NCBI GenBank assembly: GCA_003649155.1
Contig: QMRA01000001.1
Span: 1 to 24,140, forward strand
DNA length: 24,140 bases
Reading direction: 5' to 3'
Source of the DNA: Thermoproteota archaeon
GTDB lineage: Archaea; Thermoproteota; Methanomethylicia; Culexarchaeales; Culexmicrobiaceae
Each line of letters begins with the position of its first letter. Position 1 is the stretch's first letter. Position numbers and translations under genes: made by a program. This document shows, in pieces, positions 7,003 through 13,523 of the stretch. The notes below the pieces were generated by a model that was not told the origin of the DNA, searched no databases, and saw only the letters and a list, made by a program, of their open reading frames with translations.

Positions 7003-8115
7003 ATGTATTACGCTTTACGTCCAGACTCACTTCTAGTTTGGAGGAGTGAGGAGGTTAAAGAGAGGCTTTCATGGTACTATGAGGTCATGAAGGACAGGAA
7101 GCCAGCCAAGTACCTAATTTGTAAGAGAATACCAGTAGAAGTTAATTTAACGGAAGCAAGCGAGGAAGAGCTTTGGGAAGAGCACAAAAGAGCAGCTGAG
7201 AGCTTTAGAAAAGCACTCGACGAGATAGTTGAAGGTGAAAAGAAGCTTGAAGACCTACCTAAGCCTAAAGTTAGCTTTCTAGACTTGAAAATCGAGCTAG
7301 TTAAGAGGATGCTCACTCACTGCAACTTCTGCGAAAGAAGATGTGGAGTTAACAGGGCTGAGGGAGTGAAGGGCTTCTGCAGACTAGACTCCAAAACATA
7401 CGTGTCGTCCTGGTTCCACCACTGGGGTGAAGAAGCTCCACTAGTTCCAAGCGGCACAATATTCTTCGGCTCATGCAATTTCAGGTGTGTCTTCTGCCAA
7501 AACTACGACATAAGTCAACTTCACCCATATGCAGGAATACAAGTTAACTCCAAGGAGCTAGCAAAAATTCAAGCTACGCTGAGGAGGGAGGGAGTGAGGA
7601 ACATTAATTACGTAGGAGGAGAGCCGACGCCCAACCTCCACACAATAATCGAATCTCTAAAATACCTCGACGTAAACGTCCCCCTACTCTGGAACAGCAA
7701 CATGTACTGCAGTGTAGAAACGATAACCATACTCTTGGAATTAATAGACATCGCCCTACCAGACTTCAAGTACGGCAATGACTCATGCGCTAAGCGCCTG
7801 TCCATGGTCGACAGGTACTTCGAAGTAGTCTCCAGAAACCACAAGATGATGCACGACTACGGCATAGACATGATCATCAGGCACCTAGTAATGCCAAACC
7901 ACGTCGAGTGCTGCACCAAGCCAATTCTAGAGTGGATAGCTGAAAACCTCCCAAGAGCAATGGTAAACATCATGGGGCAGTACAGGCCCGAATACCTAGT
8001 CGCGTGGGAGCCGGAGAAGTATCCAGACATCGCTAGGAGGCCGTCGCAAGAGGAGATGGAAGCATCCTTCAAGTATGCTGACGAGCTAGGAATATGCTAC
8101 AGACCAGTTTCTTAA
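7003..8115 (+). CDS. pflX: Radical SAM protein, PflX / pyruvate-formate-lyase-activating-enzyme-like family
   Basis: Radical SAM motif CNFRCVFCQN, upstream CNFCERRC, HWGEEAPLVPSGTIFF, VGGEPTP, WNSNMY, DFKYGND, IRHLVMPNH, NIMGQYRP. The track start is TTG 6994; ATG 7003 is also possible. Confidence 0.88.
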   Translation: MYYALRPDSLLVWRSEEVKERLSWYYEVMKDRKPAKYLICKRIPVEVNLTEASEEELWEEHKRAAESFRKALDEIVEGEKKLEDLPKPKVSFLDLKIELVKRMLTHCNFCERRCGVNRAEGVKGFCRLDSKTYVSSWFHHWGEEAPLVPSGTIFFGSCNFRCVFCQNYDISQLHPYAGIQVNSKELAKIQATLRREGVRNINYVGGEPTPNLHTIIESLKYLDVNVPLLWNSNMYCSVETITILLELIDIALPDFKYGNDSCAKRLSMVDRYFEVVSRNHKMMHDYGIDMIIRHLVMPNHVECCTKPILEWIAENLPRAMVNIMGQYRPEYLVAWEPEKYPDIARRPSQEEMEASFKYADELGICYRPVS

Positions 8116-8733
8116 AATTTCAAATGCAAGTTTCTCACTTAAATCAGGATGACATGCACCTTCCCGCGTAAAGGATAGGAGTTCTGGTTTCAACTGGCAA
8201 AGCTTCTCCTTTCTAACCCAGAAGATCGCATCAGATATTTTTGCGACTACGTCTGGAAAGTAGGGTAGAAGAAGCCACTTCCCCATAATGTTAGTACACT
8301 TGACTGGTGATACTATAATTAGCCGCTCAACCCCATACGCGAATGCTATAGTCGATAGAACTTTGAACTCACTTAAGAGAAGTCTAGATATTGCAGCTCG
8401 CTTAGCTCTAAGCTCAAATCTCCTCACTATTGGCGGAAAGTGAAATTGCATTGAAGTATACTGCTGAAGAGCTGTGTAGAATATGCATTTCACATCTGAG
8501 CATATGCTTGATAAGCTGCGAATACATTTTGATAAAGAGCCGCTAACTTCGAGGATGAATACATCCTCATCAAGGTCGGTGAGAAGCGGCATGTCAACTA
8601 TAAGTAAGCTAGGCTTCCACTTGCAAGCCAAAGCACTAATAACCCTTTCAAGCTTCAATCCAAACAGCGTAACTACTTTCCAGCCATTCGACTCTATACG
8701 CGACTTCAAAGCGTTAATAGTCCAAGAAGTCAT
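8086..8733 (-). CDS. Hypothetical protein; putative catalytically dead RecA/Rad51-fold paralog
   Basis: The order of elements mirrors the RecA core (see findings) but there is no Walker A or B. Overlaps the SWIM gene by 20 nt and pflX convergently by 30 nt. Confidence 0.5.
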   Translation of the reverse strand: MTSWTINALKSRIESNGWKVVTLFGLKLERVISALACKWKPSLLIVDMPLLTDLDEDVFILEVSGSLSKCIRSLSSICSDVKCIFYTALQQYTSMQFHFPPIVRRFELRAKRAAISRLLLSEFKVLSTIAFAYGVERLIIVSPVKCTNIMGKWLLLPYFPDVVAKISDAIFWVRKEKLCQLKPELLSFTREGACHPDLSEKLAFEILRNWSVAYS

Positions 8734-9109
8734 CCATGCTCTTCTCCTTAATCATCCTCCACAGAATCACACTTCCAACATGCGTGCATATCCTCTTCAT
8801 TCGAATAGCGGCGAATAGCTTCTTAGGGTCATAGCAGGTGCAGCTGTACACCTTGTCTTTAGGGTGAAAGGTAACTACGTAGAAGGCTTCACAATCTCCT
8901 AAACTCCCTCTCCCCCTTACAATCCACATGTTTGGTTTAGGTGTAGAGTAGACGTCGACGAGCCTCAACTTGCATCGGTAAAACCAGGAGTATGGCTTGC
9001 CGCTGAACTTCACCTTGAACTTCTCGAAGGCGCGTTCAAGCTGGTCTGCTGAAACTCCTAACTTGACTAGTACAGTGAGCCTCTTGATGTCTCTACGTCT
9101 AGAGGACAT
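8714..9109 (-). CDS. Standalone SWIM zinc-finger protein
   Basis: YSCTC-x15-CTH (CxC...CxH) preceded by WIVRG...FYVVTF beta strands. Overlaps the radA-like stop by 11 nt. Confidence 0.82.
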   Translation of the reverse strand: MSSRRRDIKRLTVLVKLGVSADQLERAFEKFKVKFSGKPYSWFYRCKLRLVDVYSTPKPNMWIVRGRGSLGDCEAFYVVTFHPKDKVYSCTCYDPKKLFAAIRMKRICTHVGSVILWRMIKEKSMDDFLDY

Positions 9110-10082
9110 CCACTAAGCCCTTCTCCGAAATTCCAAATGTTGCAGATGATCCTCTCTGCAGGTAGGGGCTATCCTCAACGAGCATCCTCCTAACTAGAAT
9201 TCCCTGACGCTTAGAGTGTTGAGGCGCCATGAATAACCTGTGAGTAGTGCCGTGAGCAACTACATGGCCTCCAGCTGCAGTAACTCCACCGCCAGCTACT
9301 GGCTTAGCAACCACGTGGTTAGTTACGATGACGTAGACGTTGTACATCATAGCTACTCTCAAGAGGAAATTTAGCATGTAGTTGAGCGTCTGCTGCCTGG
9401 CAACCAGCATCTCCCTACCCCTATACTCGGCGCGGACGTGAGAGATCAAGCTGTCAACAACGGCTAGCTTGACGCCCTCCTCCTCAATGTACTTAGGGAG
9501 AATAGTCCTTATGCAGTCTATTTGCTCGTCCACATTCATGGGCTGGAAAACAAGTACACCGGACAGAGGGTCTTCAATATTGAAGCGCTCTCCAATTTTC
9601 GCTATTCTACTCTCAGAAAAGGTGCCTTCAGTATCTATGTAGAAAGCCTTTCCACCAACACCACCTCTATTCACTGTCAATTGGACGGTGGTTGAGAGCT
9701 GGAAGCAGAGTTGAGATTTACCAGTTCCATACTCACCAACAACTTCGTAGATGCACCTGGGCTCGAGGCCTCCCTCCAATAGCTGGTCAATAGACTTTAC
9801 GCCAGTGGTTAGTCTTGGGAGCTCACTGCGCATTGAAGCGTACTCAGAGGCTCTAAGGACTTTCTGCGGCCTAAAAGCTCGCCTCACTCTCATTAAAGCT
9901 CTATTTATCCTCGAGTAATCGTCTACGTCGACGTACATTAGCAGCTCGTCCAGCCCATACAAGGCTAGCTGCCTTGGAGTTAGGATTCCAGCTTTCCTCA
10001 GCTTCTCAGCAGTTGCAGGTCCAACTCCAGGGATGTCTTCAAGCTCCTTAAAAACCTCATTCTCAAAATCCTCCACCTTCAA
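9099..10082 (-). CDS. radA: Divergent full-length RadA/Rad51-family recombinase (probable paralog)
   Basis: N-terminal HhH (IPGVGPATAEKL), LTTG..SIDQLLEGG, Walker A GEYGTGKS, YIDTEGTF, Walker B VVDS, L1 RAEYRGREMLVARQQ, GGHVVAH. Start is TTG 10082 or GTG 10076 after GGAGGTGA. Confidence 0.88.
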   Translation of the reverse strand: MKVEDFENEVFKELEDIPGVGPATAEKLRKAGILTPRQLALYGLDELLMYVDVDDYSRINRALMRVRRAFRPQKVLRASEYASMRSELPRLTTGVKSIDQLLEGGLEPRCIYEVVGEYGTGKSQLCFQLSTTVQLTVNRGGVGGKAFYIDTEGTFSESRIAKIGERFNIEDPLSGVLVFQPMNVDEQIDCIRTILPKYIEEEGVKLAVVDSLISHVRAEYRGREMLVARQQTLNYMLNFLLRVAMMYNVYVIVTNHVVAKPVAGGGVTAAGGHVVAHGTTHRLFMAPQHSKRQGILVRRMLVEDSPYLQRGSSATFGISEKGLVDVL

Positions 10083-10419
10083 TCACCTCCAAAAACAGCT
10101 TTTTCAAGTAGTTAAGGTGAAGAATGACCTTGTCAAGCTCAAAAACTAAATCGCGTGGGGTAAGTTGAGGAGAAGTAGAGGTGAGGTCTCTAAGCGCTTG
10201 GATTAGTGAATTTACCTTCCCCCTATCATAATACTCCTCGAAGAGAAGCTTACCCTCACTTCTACCTGCGTCAGAGCGCTTAGGCATGAGAATTAACTCT
10301 CTCCTTACATTTCCACTCCTAGTCAATCTGTAATTTGCAATTACGAGGCCCTTTGAAGAGGCTAGGACAACGTAGCTGAAGCCTCTCCCATCTCTATGCC
10401 ATCTAATCCAGCTACTCAT
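10063..10419 (-). CDS. Small basic/aromatic hypothetical protein (about 118 aa)
   Basis: ATG at 10419 follows GGTGATGGTG and overlaps the upstream stop (track start 10449). The 3' end overlaps radA. No family recognised. Confidence 0.6.
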   Translation of the reverse strand: MSSWIRWHRDGRGFSYVVLASSKGLVIANYRLTRSGNVRRELILMPKRSDAGRSEGKLLFEEYYDRGKVNSLIQALRDLTSTSPQLTPRDLVFELDKVILHLNYLKKLFLEVIEGGGF

Positions 10420-11755
10420 CACCATCACCCCTATAGCTTGAGTACTCATTTAGCGCTGCAATGCCGGAGGGCGTTATTCTCAAGTAGTACTTGCCATCTC
10501 TCCCAACGACATCTGCAATGAAGCCATACGCTGAAAGCACACTGATTATGCGCTGTGCTACTTCGCTACTTAGCCCTAAGACTCCTACAGCATACCCCAT
10601 GAGGGTGTCGCGGTCTGCAGCTCCTTGAAGTAGGAATGACAGTATCTGCGCAGCAGGGTCTGCTAATCCTCTAAACATTTTGTGAAGGGCAGACTCCACC
10701 TTAGGCTTAGTTGGCTTGATGACGTCCTCAACTGGAATCCTCACCTCAGGCAGTTCTTTAAATTTGAGCTCTGCAATACTAACTCTACCACCATAGAATA
10801 CGAGGAAAGCACTACTTGGAATGTAATTTACGTGCTCCAGTCGGAAGTCGGCAAGCGGGAGAAGAGCTGATAGAGCATTAAATTCCTCTTTAGAGCGTGG
10901 AGGCGATGAAAAGGCGCAATTGAGGCTAAGTCTAGCTCTGAATGCAAGTAGCATAGGGCTTCTGCAAGATAAGATTATAGCAGGATTCCTCGACCGCTTC
11001 AAAATATCTAAGATGAAGAGGGTTCTCTCAAAGGCTACAGCATACTCCTCTCTTAAAGCTCTCATTAGGCCCGGCATTAGTAGATCTGACTCCTCCAAAA
11101 CTAGTTTTACGTCGCTCCTCTCGGAAAAATTCAGGAAGAGGAGGATTGAAGCTAAAACTCTAAATTCTCTAGGTAGGTGGTGGAGATCTACTATTAGGAG
11201 AGAATTACCTACATCATCTAGCCCCAGGAATCCACTAAATGATGATCCAATTCTACCCCAAGTTAAATTGTCTAGAAGCCTTAGAAGCCTGAAGCTGTAC
11301 GGCCTAGTGGATGCTATTTGCGATTGCGATTCAATTTCAAGTATAACATCCTCAACACTAGGCTCATAAACACCTCTAGCTACGAAACGAGCTAGAGCTT
11401 GCTGCAAAATTCTAGCAGAAACTTCACTTATGTGGAAGCTCAACTTGAAAGCTTCAGAAATTTCAAAAGCTCGAATATAAGGGTCAAACCAAGATAGGTT
11501 GAAGGGAGAAATAGAGGCGTTAAAGCCGAGGCGAACTAATTTACAATCCCTGCATAATGAGCAGAGGGCAGAATACTCTCCAAAGCCGTCGATAACTATG
11601 GTCTTCTCCCAGCCCAAGGCGTCCAAAATAGATGCATTAATTTTAACTCGCTCACTAATCGGCCCAAAAGTGCCTAAAAGGCACTTGGCCACGCGAAGAC
11701 TTGAAAGTATAGACGCTAAATTTACGATCCCAAGCATTCTAGGAACAACTACCAT
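10412..11755 (-). CDS. Degenerate HerA/VirB4/FtsK-fold ATPase-like protein with C-terminal winged helix
   Basis: VIDGFGEY, SISPF, LLIVDLHHL, LVLEESD, AIILSCRSP occur in HerA-like order, and the Walker A position reads GTFGPISE. The C-terminus is wHTH-like (AQILSFL...AQRIISVLSAYGFI...YYLRITPSG). Strong GGAGGTTGGTGA RBS. Confidence 0.6.
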   Translation of the reverse strand: MVVVPRMLGIVNLASILSSLRVAKCLLGTFGPISERVKINASILDALGWEKTIVIDGFGEYSALCSLCRDCKLVRLGFNASISPFNLSWFDPYIRAFEISEAFKLSFHISEVSARILQQALARFVARGVYEPSVEDVILEIESQSQIASTRPYSFRLLRLLDNLTWGRIGSSFSGFLGLDDVGNSLLIVDLHHLPREFRVLASILLFLNFSERSDVKLVLEESDLLMPGLMRALREEYAVAFERTLFILDILKRSRNPAIILSCRSPMLLAFRARLSLNCAFSSPPRSKEEFNALSALLPLADFRLEHVNYIPSSAFLVFYGGRVSIAELKFKELPEVRIPVEDVIKPTKPKVESALHKMFRGLADPAAQILSFLLQGAADRDTLMGYAVGVLGLSSEVAQRIISVLSAYGFIADVVGRDGKYYLRITPSGIAALNEYSSYRGDGDE

Positions 11756-12158
11756 GAATCACCAACCTCCAAATGCAAATGGCCTTCATTAGAATGGATG
11801 TTAAGAGGAGGAGAATTGCGGAGTTAATGGAGCATTTCAAATAGGATATGAAGGTTAAAGCGTCAACTAGAAATGATAAGGTTAGGATGGACTTCGCGCG
11901 CTTAACTACTCTCGAAGAAGGTAGGCAGATAGACTTAATATTGTAGAGGCTTTTCAATTCGCGAGATGGAAGTATAAATTCACCATCCCTAAGAGCATAA
12001 TTGCCTGCTAGAAGCTCATTTAGAGCAGCATCTAATCCTTCACTTGAAATGATCATTGCTGGAATCTTTCCTCTTAAAACTAGAGCTAAAGATAGAGATT
12101 CAACATCACCTTTTCGCTCAAAAACACTATCAATTCGCATCTTATTTTGGGAAATCAT
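11739..12158 (-). CDS. Hypothetical protein (139 aa)
   Basis: ATGA overlap with the upstream gene and 17-nt overlap with the downstream gene place it inside the operon. No family recognised. Confidence 0.5.
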   Translation of the reverse strand: MISQNKMRIDSVFERKGDVESLSLALVLRGKIPAMIISSEGLDAALNELLAGNYALRDGEFILPSRELKSLYNIKSICLPSSRVVKRAKSILTLSFLVDALTFISYLKCSINSAILLLLTSILMKAICIWRLVIHGSCS

Positions 12159-12739
12159 AGCTCAACACCCCAAAAGCTCGCTGTTAATAATGCGCTGACC
12201 AGCTCTTCGCCTTTCAGAATCTTAACTTCACTAGCAGGTATCGATGTAGCCAGAGAATTTAGAATTCCAGATATTATTGAAACTGCCTCATCCTTACTTC
12301 GAATAGATGAGGAAATCCGTGGACAAAGTAGGTAAAAGTCTCCACGAGACTTATTCCTAATAAAAATGAAGGAATAATCTGCAGGAATGCTCTGCAAAAT
12401 CTTCTTGAAAAGCTCTTCATCCCTAATTTCACGGAAAGCAAGAGCTCCAGAGACTGAGAATCCACCTAAACCTGATGAGCAGAGAGCTACGCAGCCCAGT
12501 ACGCCGAGTTTAATATTGACATCAAATATTGTTTTTGAAAAATTGCTGACTTTTAACTTCTCAATAATCACAGTCTTTTTAACAATGCATTTATTTTTCT
12601 TGTTTTTGCTGTTTTTTAATTTTTTAATTAAGTAGATTATTAGAAATGATGGGATAAGTATGAAGGTAAGGATGTGAAAGTTGGCTGCGAGCAGGAGGAG
12701 AGATAGTAGTAATGTGATCAAGCTGAGCAAGTCGACCAC
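12155..12739 (-). CDS. Membrane protein with N-terminal hydrophobic segment(s), Lys/Asn-rich linker and soluble alpha/beta domain
   Basis: About 35 hydrophobic N-terminal residues followed by KKLKNSKNKKNK. First gene of the minus-strand operon. Confidence 0.62.
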   Translation of the reverse strand: MVDLLSLITLLLSLLLLAANFHILTFILIPSFLIIYLIKKLKNSKNKKNKCIVKKTVIIEKLKVSNFSKTIFDVNIKLGVLGCVALCSSGLGGFSVSGALAFREIRDEELFKKILQSIPADYSFIFIRNKSRGDFYLLCPRISSSIRSKDEAVSIISGILNSLATSIPASEVKILKGEELVSALLTASFWGVEL

Positions 12740-12866
12740 CGGTTTAAGGTGGAACGTGGAGGAAGTTAAGCATGTTTTAGATGTCCGGCGAACAGCTTAC
12801 ATTCGATGAGTGGCGAATAATTAATTGCTAGGTGGGGTTGAGTTATTTGATGAAGTTGGTGGAACA

Positions 12867-13523
12867 TTGAGTAACAGTGTAGAGTTGAAAGCTGAGGAGC
12901 TGAAGGTTTTAGCTGACAAAACTAGGTTGAGAATACTTGTATTGCTTAAGGAGAGAGGAGAGCTTGGCTTAAATGATATTTCAAATTTGACTGGTAAAGC
13001 CAAGTCCACGATTTCAGATCACTTGAAGCTCTTGCTCAAGGCCGGGTTTATAGAGAGGAAGGAGGCGGATAGGGGGTTTCTATACTTTTTAACTGAGAAG
13101 GGTGCGAGTGTTCTTCCGCTGATTGAAGATAAGCCTTATACAGTTAGGGTTGAAGAAGAAGCAGCCTCCTCCAGCTTCATGGTTAACATTGAGTTGTGGC
13201 TTGAGAGGATTGGCAGGGGTAGAAGACATGTGGTACCTTCAGTTTTACTGGGCTTGTCAATGATCATTCTTGGGTACATGCCGTTATCAGCGGTGGTAAC
13301 GTCATTAGCTCTAGGAGCAATTTTAGGATTGCTGGATGCGAATGCCCGCGAATTTGCTGAAAGCTCAGCATTATATGCAGTTTTCACTGCAATTTCAGCC
13401 ATCTTGAGGGAGTGGAGTTTAGCTATGATACTCACCGTCCTACCTTCACTTGCAATCTTCATTTTAATTGGAGGAATTGCGTGGATAGGGGTTAAACTCA
13501 TAATGCAGAAGTGGATAAGGTAG
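12867..13523 (+). CDS. ArsR-type winged-helix transcriptional regulator fused to a C-terminal multi-TM domain
   Basis: LKVLADKTRLRILVLL, ISNLTGKAKSTISDHLKLLLKAGFIE, YFLTEKG, then 3-4 hydrophobic helices. The track start is 12825; TTG 12867 follows GGTGGA. Confidence 0.82.
   Translation: MSNSVELKAEELKVLADKTRLRILVLLKERGELGLNDISNLTGKAKSTISDHLKLLLKAGFIERKEADRGFLYFLTEKGASVLPLIEDKPYTVRVEEEAASSSFMVNIELWLERIGRGRRHVVPSVLLGLSMIILGYMPLSAVVTSLALGAILGLLDANAREFAESSALYAVFTAISAILREWSLAMILTVLPSLAIFILIGGIAWIGVKLIMQKWIR

What the first reader, a model, noticed from the sequence alone, without database searches (positions are those of the whole stretch)
9099..10082. RadA copy with altered polymerisation motif, L2 loop and gamma-phosphate sensor
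Seen, versus the recalled RadA consensus: the FxxA polymerisation motif reads VLRA (16 residues before TTG, the canonical register); TNQ is TNH; L2 (typically ARPDMFYGDP-like) is AKPVAGGGV, about 2 residues shorter and without aromatics; the basic KxxxxxR segment is replaced by APQHSKRQGILVRR. The HhH domain, Walker A/B, catalytic Glu and L1 are intact. Inference: not the main recombinase but a full-length paralog with weak self-polymerisation, such as a filament nucleator or cap. It differs from RadB/RadC-type paralogs, which lack the N-terminal domain.
Basis: partly seen in the sequence, partly recalled or inferred. Interest (0 to 1): 0.62.

Follow-up and report, generated by a model that had tools for sequence, protein, structure and literature searches.

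The report
Second, altered RadA recombinase paralog
This archaeon has normal RadA recombinase genes elsewhere; the copy here belongs to an old, undescribed RadA side-branch whose self-assembly and second DNA-binding sites are rebuilt, and which sits in a conserved operon with inactive ATPase-like partners, so it is probably a recombination helper.

Summary
The ORF 9099-10082(-) is an intact, full-length RadA homolog. It reads VLRA for FxxA and TNH for TNQ, has an L2 loop 2 residues shorter without aromatics, and has a rebuilt basic C-terminal hairpin.

It is not the main recombinase. The same genome has two canonical F-containing radA genes (contigs C44 and C83).

The copy belongs to a lineage of F-less full-length RadA proteins. 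This lineage is found in Methanomethylicia, Thermoproteaceae, Thermofilaceae and unnamed Thermoproteota, and is split from canonical RadA by a branch with 100/99 support.
- Lineage-wide changes: loss of the Phe plug and loss of the invariant pocket Ala (human RAD51 A192).
- The site-II basic residues are also lost in most clades.
- Retained: the ATPase residues, the ATP cap and the L1 arginines.
- dN/dS is about 0.04.

The gene sits in a conserved operon: membrane protein, Walker-A-dead VirB4/HerA-fold protein with a winged helix, a small protein, RadA3, a SWIM protein and a dead RecA-core protein. The operon co-occurs with a membrane-anchored CedD/VirD4-like ATPase encoded elsewhere.

Most likely it is an accessory, non-exchanging RadA subunit, analogous to eukaryotic RAD51 paralogs. 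TNH is not diagnostic, and V-for-F alone is not either (Korarchaeum RadA has it). This scan has flagged the same operon before on other DNA.

The parts
9099..10082 (-). RadA3: full-length F-less RadA paralog (probable start GTG 10076)
   Evidence: PF08423 at 1.9e-54; NF003301 262 bits against cut-off 259; TIGR02236 240 bits against cut-off 361.
9939..10052 (-). N-terminal HhH domain (residues 11-48)
   Evidence: Pfam HHH_5 at 6.9e-08. L14, D16, G19, G21, T24, A25, L28 and G32 are invariant in the family alignment A3.
9849..9860 (-). VLRA in the register of the FxxA polymerisation motif (V75 = human F86)
   Evidence: Alignment to 1PZN, 2BKE and RAD51. F is found in 0 of 48 paralog-lineage sequences and in 44 of 46 canonical ones.
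9714..9737 (-). Walker A GEYGTGKS, intact
   Evidence: G116, G119, G121 and K122 are invariant in A3.
9546..9548 (-). F179 at the position of human RAD51 A192 (floor of the Phe pocket)
   Evidence: Ala in 45 of 46 canonical RadA. In the paralog clades it is S/I/F/Y, F, V or A/Y/D. Pocket definition taken from PMC4855620.
9315..9323 (-). TNH in place of TNQ
   Evidence: H occurs only in family f1, Q in f3 and TTP in f9.
9282..9308 (-). L2 loop AKPVAGGGV, 2 residues shorter and without aromatics
   Evidence: The two aromatic columns (91% and 87% F in canonical RadA) are deleted in 11 of 18 clade A members.
9174..9227 (-). C-terminal hairpin APQHSKRQGILVRRMLVE. The human RAD51 site-II equivalents R303, K304 and K313 are A286, P287 and L301.
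   Evidence: Site II is defined in PMC6764946 and PMC11106524.
8714..9109 (-). SWIM zinc-finger protein (131 aa), start overlaps the RadA3 stop
   Evidence: CxC..CxH is conserved in alignment A2. Atlas feature match to SWIM clusters scores 0.95. No Pfam or PDB sequence hit.
8086..8733 (-). p215: RecA/Rad51-core fold without Walker A
   Evidence: Model pLDDT 89.7. Foldseek top hits are chains of RAD51/RAD51-paralog complexes, RAD51, DMC1 and RecA, at about 1e-7. The L108 ortholog keeps GEAGAGKT.
10063..10449 (-). p128: small conserved protein of unknown fold, stop overlaps the RadA3 start
   Evidence: Positional orthologs in 19 loci. No family hit.
10412..11755 (-). p447: VirB4/HerA-fold protein with degenerate Walker A and a C-terminal winged helix
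   Evidence: Alignment A4. PDB profile hit to VirB4 4AG5 at 2.2e-05. Model pLDDT 87.5. Foldseek hit to 4AG6 at 6.6e-10, followed by HerA and TrwB.
11739..12158 (-). 139-aa ORF found only in this genus
   Evidence: Homolog found only in G012.
12155..12739 (-). First gene of the operon: about 200-aa protein with N-terminal hydrophobic helices

Best explanation
The gene encodes a member of an old, full-length RadA paralog lineage of Thermoproteota, called RadA3 here. It works beside the canonical recombinases, not in place of them.

Shown here:
- It keeps everything needed to bind and hydrolyse ATP at a RecA-type subunit interface, and to bind ssDNA through loop L1 and the HhH domain.
- It has lost the Phe plug of the FxxA motif.
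- A bulky residue replaces the invariant Ala in the pocket that receives that plug.
- L2 is rebuilt, and the basic residues of the secondary DNA-binding site (site II) are gone.

Inferred:
- It cannot join or form canonical FxxA-stapled RadA filaments.
- It is poor at strand exchange.
- It acts as an ATP- and ssDNA-binding accessory subunit in a complex with its operon partners: the SWIM protein, the dead RecA-core protein, the small p128 protein and the membrane-linked dead VirB4/HerA-like protein.
- Its role would be to prepare or stabilise ssDNA for canonical RadA, possibly DNA handled at the membrane by a CedD/VirD4-like ATPase.

In this it resembles eukaryotic RAD51 paralog and Shu complexes by analogy, not by descent.
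For: Paralog status:
- Canonical radA genes lie on C44 and C83.
- In 62 genomes of the class, no genome that is at least 90% complete has only the altered type.

Lineage:
- All F-less sequences lie on one side of a branch with support 99.5 (quick tree) and 100/99 (careful tree).
- Named members include Methanosuratincola, Methanomethylicus, Vulcanisaeta, Thermofilum and Infirmifilum.

Residues:
- F86-equivalent: 0 of 48 paralog sequences against 44 of 46 canonical.
- A192-equivalent: Ala in 45 of 46 canonical RadA, bulky in clades A to C.
- R303, K304 and K313 equivalents are lost in clade A. Most are also lost in clades B and T.
- Walker A/B, E152, R217/R223/R229, H277 and D304 are invariant.

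Published background:
- Human BCDX2 subunits likewise lack FxxA and have an occluded pocket. XRCC3 uses Ile at the F86 position (PMC13186703).
- Site II is dispensable for filament formation but needed for strand exchange (PMC6764946, PMC11106524).

Selection: dN/dS is 0.04 for RadA3 and 0.13-0.19 for the partners.

Operon:
- It is conserved in several different genomic contexts across at least 13 families.
- p215 has a RecA-core fold and p447 a VirB4/HerA fold.
- A SWIM-p215 fusion occurs in L127 (weak).
- The operon co-occurs with a CedD-like ATPase: 45 of 45 genomes with the operon against 5 of 15 without it. This includes two within-genus contrasts.
Against: - There is no biochemical or structural test of assembly or strand exchange.
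- V at the Phe position also occurs in the otherwise canonical, top-scoring RadA of Korarchaeum, so that change alone does not stop a recombinase.
- PfRadA has Tyr at the A190-equivalent, so only the A192-equivalent change is a clear pocket change.
- Clade C keeps basic site-II residues and clade T keeps the RK pair, so loss of site II is not lineage-wide.
- SWIM and p215 are absent from the operon in the largest family, f6, and in four other lineages. A Shu-like trio therefore cannot be the core function.
- The SWIM protein has no detectable sequence relation to Shu2.
Confidence: 0.5

Rival explanations
1. RadA3 is a second, fully competent recombinase whose plug and socket co-evolved into a private, orthogonal polymerisation interface. 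It would form its own filaments, insulated from canonical RadA, for a dedicated pathway such as recombining DNA taken up at the membrane.
For: - All ATPase, ATP-cap and L1 residues are invariant.
- An aliphatic plug can still dock in a shallow pocket, as XRCC3 Ile62 does on RAD51C.
- Korarchaeum RadA works with V at this position.
- Clade C keeps site-II basic residues.
- The operon co-occurs with a CedD/VirD4-like ATPase. CedD is essential for DNA import in Sulfolobus (PMC11823120).
Against: - The site-II equivalents R303, K304 and K313 are non-basic in the window's protein and in clade A. Most are also non-basic in B and T.
- L2 is shortened and has lost its aromatics.
- Its dedicated partners include a dead RecA-core protein and a SWIM protein, which is the pattern of mediator complexes.
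Confidence: 0.27
2. RadA3 is not a recombination protein. It would be the ATPase subunit of a membrane DNA-translocation, defence or mobile-element machine built on the VirB4-like scaffold, acting as a ring motor or switch.
For: - p447 has a VirB4/HerA/TrwB fold and is preceded by a small membrane protein, as VirB3 precedes VirB4 (the VirB3 comparison is from my own knowledge).
- In the window p447 and p215 have lost Walker A, which leaves RadA3 as the only operon protein with an intact Walker A motif (I found none in the small proteins, but did not search them systematically).
Against: - The HhH domain, the L1 arginines and the overall sequence are closest to strand-exchange RadA/RAD51: 342-344 bits to archaeal RadA and 299 to RAD51, against 146 or less to RAD51 paralogs.
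- The locus is chromosomal and syntenic within the order, with no composition anomaly.
- The RadA3 tree roughly follows the family groupings, which does not fit a mobile element.
Confidence: 0.13
3. It is the organism's main recombinase, or a decaying redundant duplicate.
For: It passes NCBI's NF003301 RadA cut-off by 3 bits, and public records name its orthologs RadA.
Against: - Two canonical copies are in the same genome.
- TIGR02236 scores 240 against a cut-off of 361.
- dN/dS is 0.04 and 52 columns are invariant across the family.
- The lineage is conserved across classes.
Confidence: 0.03

Closest known systems
Canonical archaeal RadA (e.g. P. furiosus 1PZN, S. solfataricus 2BKE)
   Same: Same two-domain architecture (HhH plus Rad51 core). 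About 40-46% identity. Walker A/B, catalytic Glu, L1 arginines, H277 and the ATP-cap Asp are all present. The best PDB matches are 342-344 bits for the family profile.
   Different: The Phe of FxxA is V. The pocket Ala is F. L2 is shorter without aromatics. Site-II basic residues are lost. It is below the TIGR02236 cut-off. It coexists with canonical copies and has its own operon.
Archaeal short paralogs RadB and aRadC
   Same: These are RecA-family paralogs that coexist with RadA. RadB is a known recombination mediator in Haloferax (PMC7776575).
   Different: They lack the N-terminal domain and linker, whereas RadA3 is full-length. RadB models are not met: 111 bits against 172, and 64 against 278. 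The genome has separate short paralogs on C4, C44 and C77.
Eukaryotic classical RAD51 paralogs (BCDX2, CX3) and the Shu complex (Shu2/SWS1 with Rad51-like cores)
   Same: Full-length or core paralogs with FxxA lost and the pocket occluded. XRCC3 has an aliphatic residue at the F86 position. A SWIM protein is paired with an ATPase-dead Rad51-like core. The p215 model's best structural matches are chains of RAD51/RAD51-paralog complexes.
   Different: RadA3 is far closer in sequence to RadA/RAD51 than to the paralogs (299-344 bits against 146 or less), so this is an independent archaeal duplication. The SWIM protein has no detectable sequence match to Shu2 or to any PDB chain. SWIM and p215 are optional in the operon. 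Eukaryotes have no VirB4-like partner.
Rad51-II3A / RAD51-II3A separation-of-function alleles
   Same: The site-II basic residues (human R303 and K313 equivalents) are non-basic, while the site-I and ATPase residues are intact.
   Different: Here it is a natural, conserved protein rather than an engineered allele. The polymerisation interface is altered as well.
Ced/Ted DNA-import systems of Thermoproteota (CedB, CedD)
   Same: The operon contains a VirB4/HerA-fold protein behind a small membrane protein, and it co-occurs with a membrane-anchored CedD-like ATPase.
   Different: p447 lacks Walker A. Only 1 of 19 members touches the CedD model, at E 0.023. The co-occurring ATPase scores 57-227 bits against a cut-off of 600. 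The CedD paper I read lists no RadA paralog among the Ced components; I did not read the Ted paper.

Membership tests
RadA/Rad51 superfamily (Pfam PF08423, RAD-alpha type) | Rad51-type ATPase core with Walker A/B and catalytic Glu | tested here: met
   PF08423 at 1.9e-54 over residues 85-325. The motifs are invariant in A3.
RadA/Rad51 superfamily (Pfam PF08423, RAD-alpha type) | N-terminal HhH domain | tested here: met
   HHH_5 at 6.9e-08. It aligns from residue 8 of PfRadA and RAD51.
Canonical RadA recombinase (NCBIfam equivalogs) | Score above the curated equivalog cut-offs | tested here: inconclusive
   NF003301 scores 262.3 against 259 (just met). TIGR02236 scores 240.2 against 361.15 (not met). 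The C44 copy scores 430.
Canonical RadA recombinase (NCBIfam equivalogs) | FxxA polymerisation motif with Phe, and a matching pocket | tested here: not met
   V75 stands for Phe, and F179 stands for the pocket Ala.
Canonical RadA recombinase (NCBIfam equivalogs) | Filament formation and strand exchange | not testable with these tools
   This needs biochemistry. The site-II residues are non-basic.
RadB | Core-only protein matching TIGR02237 or NF006861 | tested here: not met
   Scores are 110.9 against 172.4 and 64 against 278. RadA3 also has the N-terminal domain.
Eukaryotic RAD51 paralogs (RAD-beta) | Closer in sequence to RAD51B/C/D and XRCC2/3 than to RAD51/RadA | tested here: not met
   The family profile scores 146 bits or less to the paralogs, against 299 to RAD51 and 344 to RadA.
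Eukaryotic RAD51 paralogs (RAD-beta) | FxxA lost and pocket occluded | tested here: met
   The feature is described for BCDX2 in PMC13186703. This is resemblance only.
Shu-like complex (SWIM protein plus Rad51-like cores) | Small protein with a CxC..CxH SWIM motif | tested here: met
   C90, C92, C108 and H110 are conserved in A2. Atlas SWIM clusters score 0.95.
Shu-like complex (SWIM protein plus Rad51-like cores) | Sequence relation of the SWIM protein to Shu2/SWS1 | tested here: not met
   The profile search of PDB sequences gave no hit at E up to 10. Pfam SWIM was not hit.
Shu-like complex (SWIM protein plus Rad51-like cores) | ATPase-dead Rad51-fold partner | tested here: met
   p215 model and Foldseek result. 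Walker A is absent in the window's copy.
Shu-like complex (SWIM protein plus Rad51-like cores) | Physical binding of the SWIM protein to the paralogs | not testable with these tools
   This needs pull-downs or a structure.
CedD / Ced system | p447 or the co-occurring ATPase reaches the NF053655 cut-off of 600 bits | tested here: not met
   For p447, 1 of 19 members hits at E 0.023. The co-occurring ATPases score 57-227 bits.

The most novel reading that the evidence does not exclude
RadA3, the SWIM protein and the dead RecA-core protein form an archaeal counterpart of the eukaryotic RAD51-paralog and Shu mediator complexes. The complex would be tethered by a dead VirB4-like scaffold to a membrane DNA-import motor. 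It would be the missing 'receiving end' that coats incoming ssDNA and hands it to canonical RadA. That would be a recombination-mediator machine of a kind not described in archaea.
Probability: 0.25. Interest if true: 0.85.

Novelty: new variant of a known kind. Interest (0 to 1): 0.64.

Why it matters
Archaeal recombination mediators are poorly known. The ones described so far are short, core-only paralogs (RadB, aRadC).

A widespread full-length RadA paralog would be new. It independently shows the same signature as human RAD51 paralogs: lost Phe plug, filled pocket, intact ATPase. It also travels with a SWIM protein and a dead RecA core. If it is a mediator, paralog-based control of the recombinase arose more than once, and a simple thermostable model of it would be available.

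The link to a dead VirB4-like scaffold and a CedD-like ATPase makes a further question testable: how imported DNA reaches the recombination machinery in archaea.

Carriers include the cultured Methanosuratincola and Thermofilum, so experiments are feasible. Public annotation currently names these proteins simply 'RadA'. That hides the paralogy and can mislead RadA phylogenies.

Tried and rejected
1. Complex prediction with RadA3, SWIM and p215 (partner RadA3) returned 'no answer' (score 0.01). I do not use it as evidence either way.
2. I searched for fused forms of RadA3 (lengths 'longer'). Only intein-containing RadA proteins appeared, and no fusion to an operon partner.
3. PDB sequence-profile searches: nothing for the SWIM family. 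For p215 there was one spurious designed TIM barrel and a non-significant RadA match (E 1.2). The p215 fold was settled by structure instead.
4. Pfam and NCBIfam gave no hit for the window's copies of the five partners tested. The TM194 and 139-aa ORFs were checked against Pfam only, also without a hit.
5. An Atlas feature search for p128 gave no usable hit.
6. Godin et al. 2015, which claims archaeal Shu2/SWS1 orthologs (cited in PMC5727457), could not be read because it is not held.
7. Literature searches for a described F-less or second full-length RadA in Thermoproteales or Methanomethylicia found nothing. The nearest is a RadA duplication in some Asgard archaea (PMC12722695).
8. I rejected TNH as a meaningful gamma-phosphate-sensor change for the lineage. 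It is H in f1 only, Q elsewhere and TTP in f9.
9. I rejected aromatic residues at the A190-equivalent as a sign of pocket occlusion, because PfRadA has Tyr there.
10. I rejected the mobile-element reading: there is no composition anomaly and the flanks are conserved.
Full report
**The gene and the observation**

The minus-strand ORF 9099..10082 is open for 327 codons. It matches Pfam Rad51 at 1.9e-54 together with an N-terminal HHH_5 domain.
- NCBI's RadA model NF003301 is passed by 3 bits (262.3 against 259).
- The stricter TIGR02236 model is missed by far (240 against 361).
- The RadB models are not reached.

HMMER alignments to solved P. furiosus RadA, S. solfataricus RadA and human RAD51 fix the register.
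- VLRA lies exactly on FMRA / FKTA / FTTA.
- TNH lies on TNQ.
- AKPVAGGGV lies on ARPDAFFGDP, with a two-residue gap and no aromatic residue.
- The hairpin before DSP reads APQHSKRQGILVRRMLVE instead of LRKGKGGKRIARLI.

The start is more likely GTG 10076. A GGAGGTGA box lies 6-8 nt upstream of it, and the database form is 325 aa. This still overlaps the stop of the upstream gene.

**It is not the only radA**

The assembly is 946 kb in 161 contigs and 58% complete.
- Contig C44 holds a RadA that scores 430 bits on TIGR02236. It reads FITA, TNQ, SDPAAFYANPTKP and KKAKGGKR.
- Contig C83 holds a second canonical copy, cut by the contig end. It reads FKTA and is 92.6% identical to an ortholog in the 99%-complete congener G012.
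- G012 has the same three full-length genes.
- Short core-only paralogs also exist on C4, C44 and C77.

**A paralog lineage**

The closest database proteins (61-100% identity) come from Methanomethylicia MAGs. A second tier at 44-55% includes proteins named RadA from Thermofilum.

In 62 genomes of the class, most have two to four full-length RadA genes. A tree of 95 sequences puts all altered copies on one side of a branch with SH-aLRT 99.5. A careful tree of 85 sequences, including named genomes, gives that split 100/99.

Named carriers of the altered type include Ca. Methanosuratincola petrocarbonis, Ca. Methanomethylicus mesodigestus, Vulcanisaeta, uncultured Thermoproteaceae, Thermofilum, Infirmifilum and several unnamed Thermoproteota. 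The complete genome matching Ca. M. verstraetei (G036) carries one too.

In Thermofilum pendens the altered and canonical genes lie 3 kb apart.

The trees are unrooted. Monophyly therefore rests on the split together with shared derived residues.

**What changed and what did not**

I compared 46 canonical sequences with the four altered clades:
- A: the window's clade.
- B: Methanomethylicaceae and kin.
- C: Nezhaarchaeales-like.
- T: Thermoproteales.

- The Phe of FxxA is present in 44 of 46 canonical sequences and in 0 of 48 altered ones, which have V, I, A, L or P.
- The residue equivalent to human RAD51 A192 lines the Phe pocket, together with M158, I160, L203 and M210 (PMC4855620). It is Ala in 45 of 46 canonical sequences. 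In the altered clades it is F in the window, S/I/F/Y across clade A, F in 15 of 16 clade B members, and V in clade C.
- The M158 equivalent shifts from Leu to Phe.
- In clade A the invariant RPE after TEGTF is also lost. By my recollection of the BRC4-RAD51 structure this belongs to the Ala pocket; I did not verify that here.
- The two aromatic L2 columns are deleted in the window's order.
- The equivalents of human R303 and K304 are RK in canonical RadA. In the window they are A and P, and the K313 equivalent is L.
- The hairpin carries 3.9 basic residues in clade A against 5.9 in canonical RadA.

R130, R303 and K313 form site II of RAD51. Site II is dispensable for filament formation but needed for strand invasion (PMC6764946, PMC11106524).

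By contrast, several positions are invariant in all altered sequences: Walker A Lys, catalytic Glu, Walker B Asp, the L1 arginines R217 and R229 (R223 varies in three clade-T sequences), His277 and the ATP-cap Asp304. From my own knowledge, His277 and Asp304 act across the subunit interface. Their retention suggests that a RecA-type ATP-bridged interface is still formed.

**Caveats on the residue reading**

- TNH occurs only in family f1. It is Q in f3 and TTP in f9.
- V at the Phe position is also found in the otherwise canonical, top-scoring RadA of Korarchaeum (VMSA).
- PfRadA has Tyr at the A190 equivalent.
- Clade C keeps basic site-II residues.

The signature is the combination of changes, not any single substitution.

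The parallel with human paralogs is direct. [quoted passage not shown] In sequence, however, the family profile is much nearer to RadA and RAD51 (344 and 299 bits) than to RAD51B/C or XRCC3 (146 bits or less). This is convergence after an archaeal duplication.

**The gene is under constraint**

Against the G012 ortholog, dN/dS is 0.04 for RadA3 and 0.13-0.19 for its neighbours. dS is about 1.4, which is near saturation.

At the level of the order, RadA3 branches are about three times longer than those of the canonical C83-type copy. That fits a secondary, faster-evolving paralog.

**Context**

RadA3 is the fourth of six conserved, overlapping genes:
1. An approximately 200-aa membrane protein.
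2. p447.
3. p128.
4. RadA3.
5. A SWIM protein.
6. p215.

A seventh, genus-specific 139-aa ORF also lies in the window's operon.

- p447 models at pLDDT 87.5. It is most similar to the VirB4 ATPase domain (4AG6, 6.6e-10), then to HerA and TrwB. Its Walker A is degenerate in all 19 aligned members, and it ends in a winged helix.
- p215 models at pLDDT 89.7. It is most similar to RAD51, RAD51-paralog and RecA cores. One ortholog still has GEAGAGKT.
- The SWIM protein has the conserved CxC..CxH motif.

The block from the membrane protein to RadA3 occurs in the families of the class that carry the operon, and in six further Thermoproteota families, in differing flanking contexts. SWIM and p215 are missing from family f6 and from four other lineages. 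In one lineage SWIM is fused to a p215-like half (hhalign E 0.0047, weak).

Thermoproteales carry RadA3 without p447 or SWIM.

**Link to a DNA-translocating ATPase**

This test follows a lead from earlier notes of this scan. In the class, all 45 genomes with p447 also have a hit to the CedD model at E of 1e-15 or better, elsewhere in the genome. Only 5 of the 15 genomes without p447 do, and four of those five are either at most 75% complete or highly fragmented. Two within-genus pairs (g12 and g18) lose both together.

- The hits are membrane-anchored Walker-A-intact ATPases.
- In Methanosuratincola the gene sits in a cluster with a second ATPase and multi-pass membrane proteins.
- The scores (57-227 bits) are far below the CedD cut-off of 600, so membership is not shown.
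- CedD is essential for DNA import in Sulfolobus (PMC11823120).
- Related genomes are not independent samples, so the co-occurrence is suggestive rather than proof.

**Reading**

Shown:
- Paralog status, the extent of the lineage, the pattern of changed and retained residues, purifying selection, the conserved operon, and the folds of two partners.

Inferred:
- RadA3 no longer uses the canonical Phe-in-pocket staple, so it is insulated from ordinary RadA filaments.
- In the window's clade it lacks site II, so it is unlikely to carry out strand exchange.
- It works as an ATP- and ssDNA-binding accessory subunit with its operon partners, possibly on DNA delivered at the membrane.

The main rival is a private-filament recombinase for a dedicated pathway. 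Sequence alone cannot exclude it.

**Novelty**

No paper in the searchable library describes a full-length F-less RadA paralog or this operon. Public records call the proteins RadA.

This scan has flagged the same operon on other genomes several times. I treated those notes as leads and tested the fold assignments, the FxxA loss and the CedD co-occurrence myself.

Noticed in passing
window 12825-13523 (+): An ArsR/HTH_5-type regulator (Pfam 7e-13) with a hydrophobic C-terminal half is divergent to the operon start. The same gene flanks the operon in L013 and L015. An HTH_5 protein follows the operon in L017, which has a different genomic context. It may be a dedicated membrane-tethered regulator.
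   Followed up: partly
window 11739-12158 (-): A 139-aa ORF lies between the membrane protein and p447. It is found only in this genus (G000 and G012).
   Followed up: partly
G000 contig C44 (locus L006 725-3916): Canonical radA is followed directly by a 246-aa short RadA-like paralog. An Orc1/Cdc6-like AAA protein lies upstream of it.
   Followed up: no
P0116 (Korarchaeum cryptofilum RadA); loci L195, L199: The top-scoring, otherwise canonical RadA of Korarchaeia reads VMSA at the FxxA position. A Phe plug is therefore not universal even in primary archaeal RadA.
   Followed up: partly
L089 5050-8357 (Thermofilum pendens CP000505): The F-less RadA is flanked by a 133-aa winged-helix-like protein, a coupled 189-aa protein and a 156-aa ORF with a PD-(D/E)xK-like motif. 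Canonical radA lies 3 kb downstream. This looks like a reduced or alternative form of the module.
   Followed up: partly
L123 7317-7796, L125 2708-3169, L126 7159-7611, L017 7664-8041, L089 5050-5451; G000 C127 1316-2077 (-): A shared C-terminal tail motif, LPS[FY]..DNPW[LI]..L..RG, ends otherwise unrelated proteins that sit next to RadA3 in other lineages; most look DNA-binding (AbrB/MazE-like, C2H2 finger, winged-helix-like). In this genome it occurs once, on another contig. It may be a docking peptide.
   Followed up: partly
L127 7205-8002: SWIM domain fused to an approximately 150-aa C-terminal half that aligns colinearly with the p215 family (hhalign E 0.0047). This is a possible gene-fusion ('Rosetta stone') hint that SWIM and p215 bind each other.
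   Followed up: partly
L217 3657-9022 (G036, Ca. Methanosuratincola verstraetei): A cluster of a 567-aa Walker-A ATPase, two multi-pass membrane proteins and a membrane-anchored 604-aa CedD-like ATPase. It looks like a Ced/Ted-type DNA-transfer locus.
   Followed up: no
L218 7272-10767 (G012) and L219 5238-8550 (G006): In the window's order, the CedD-like membrane-anchored ATPase is adjacent to a 616-618-aa protein whose N-terminal motifs look like an XPD/DinG-type helicase. I judged this by eye and did not test it.
   Followed up: no
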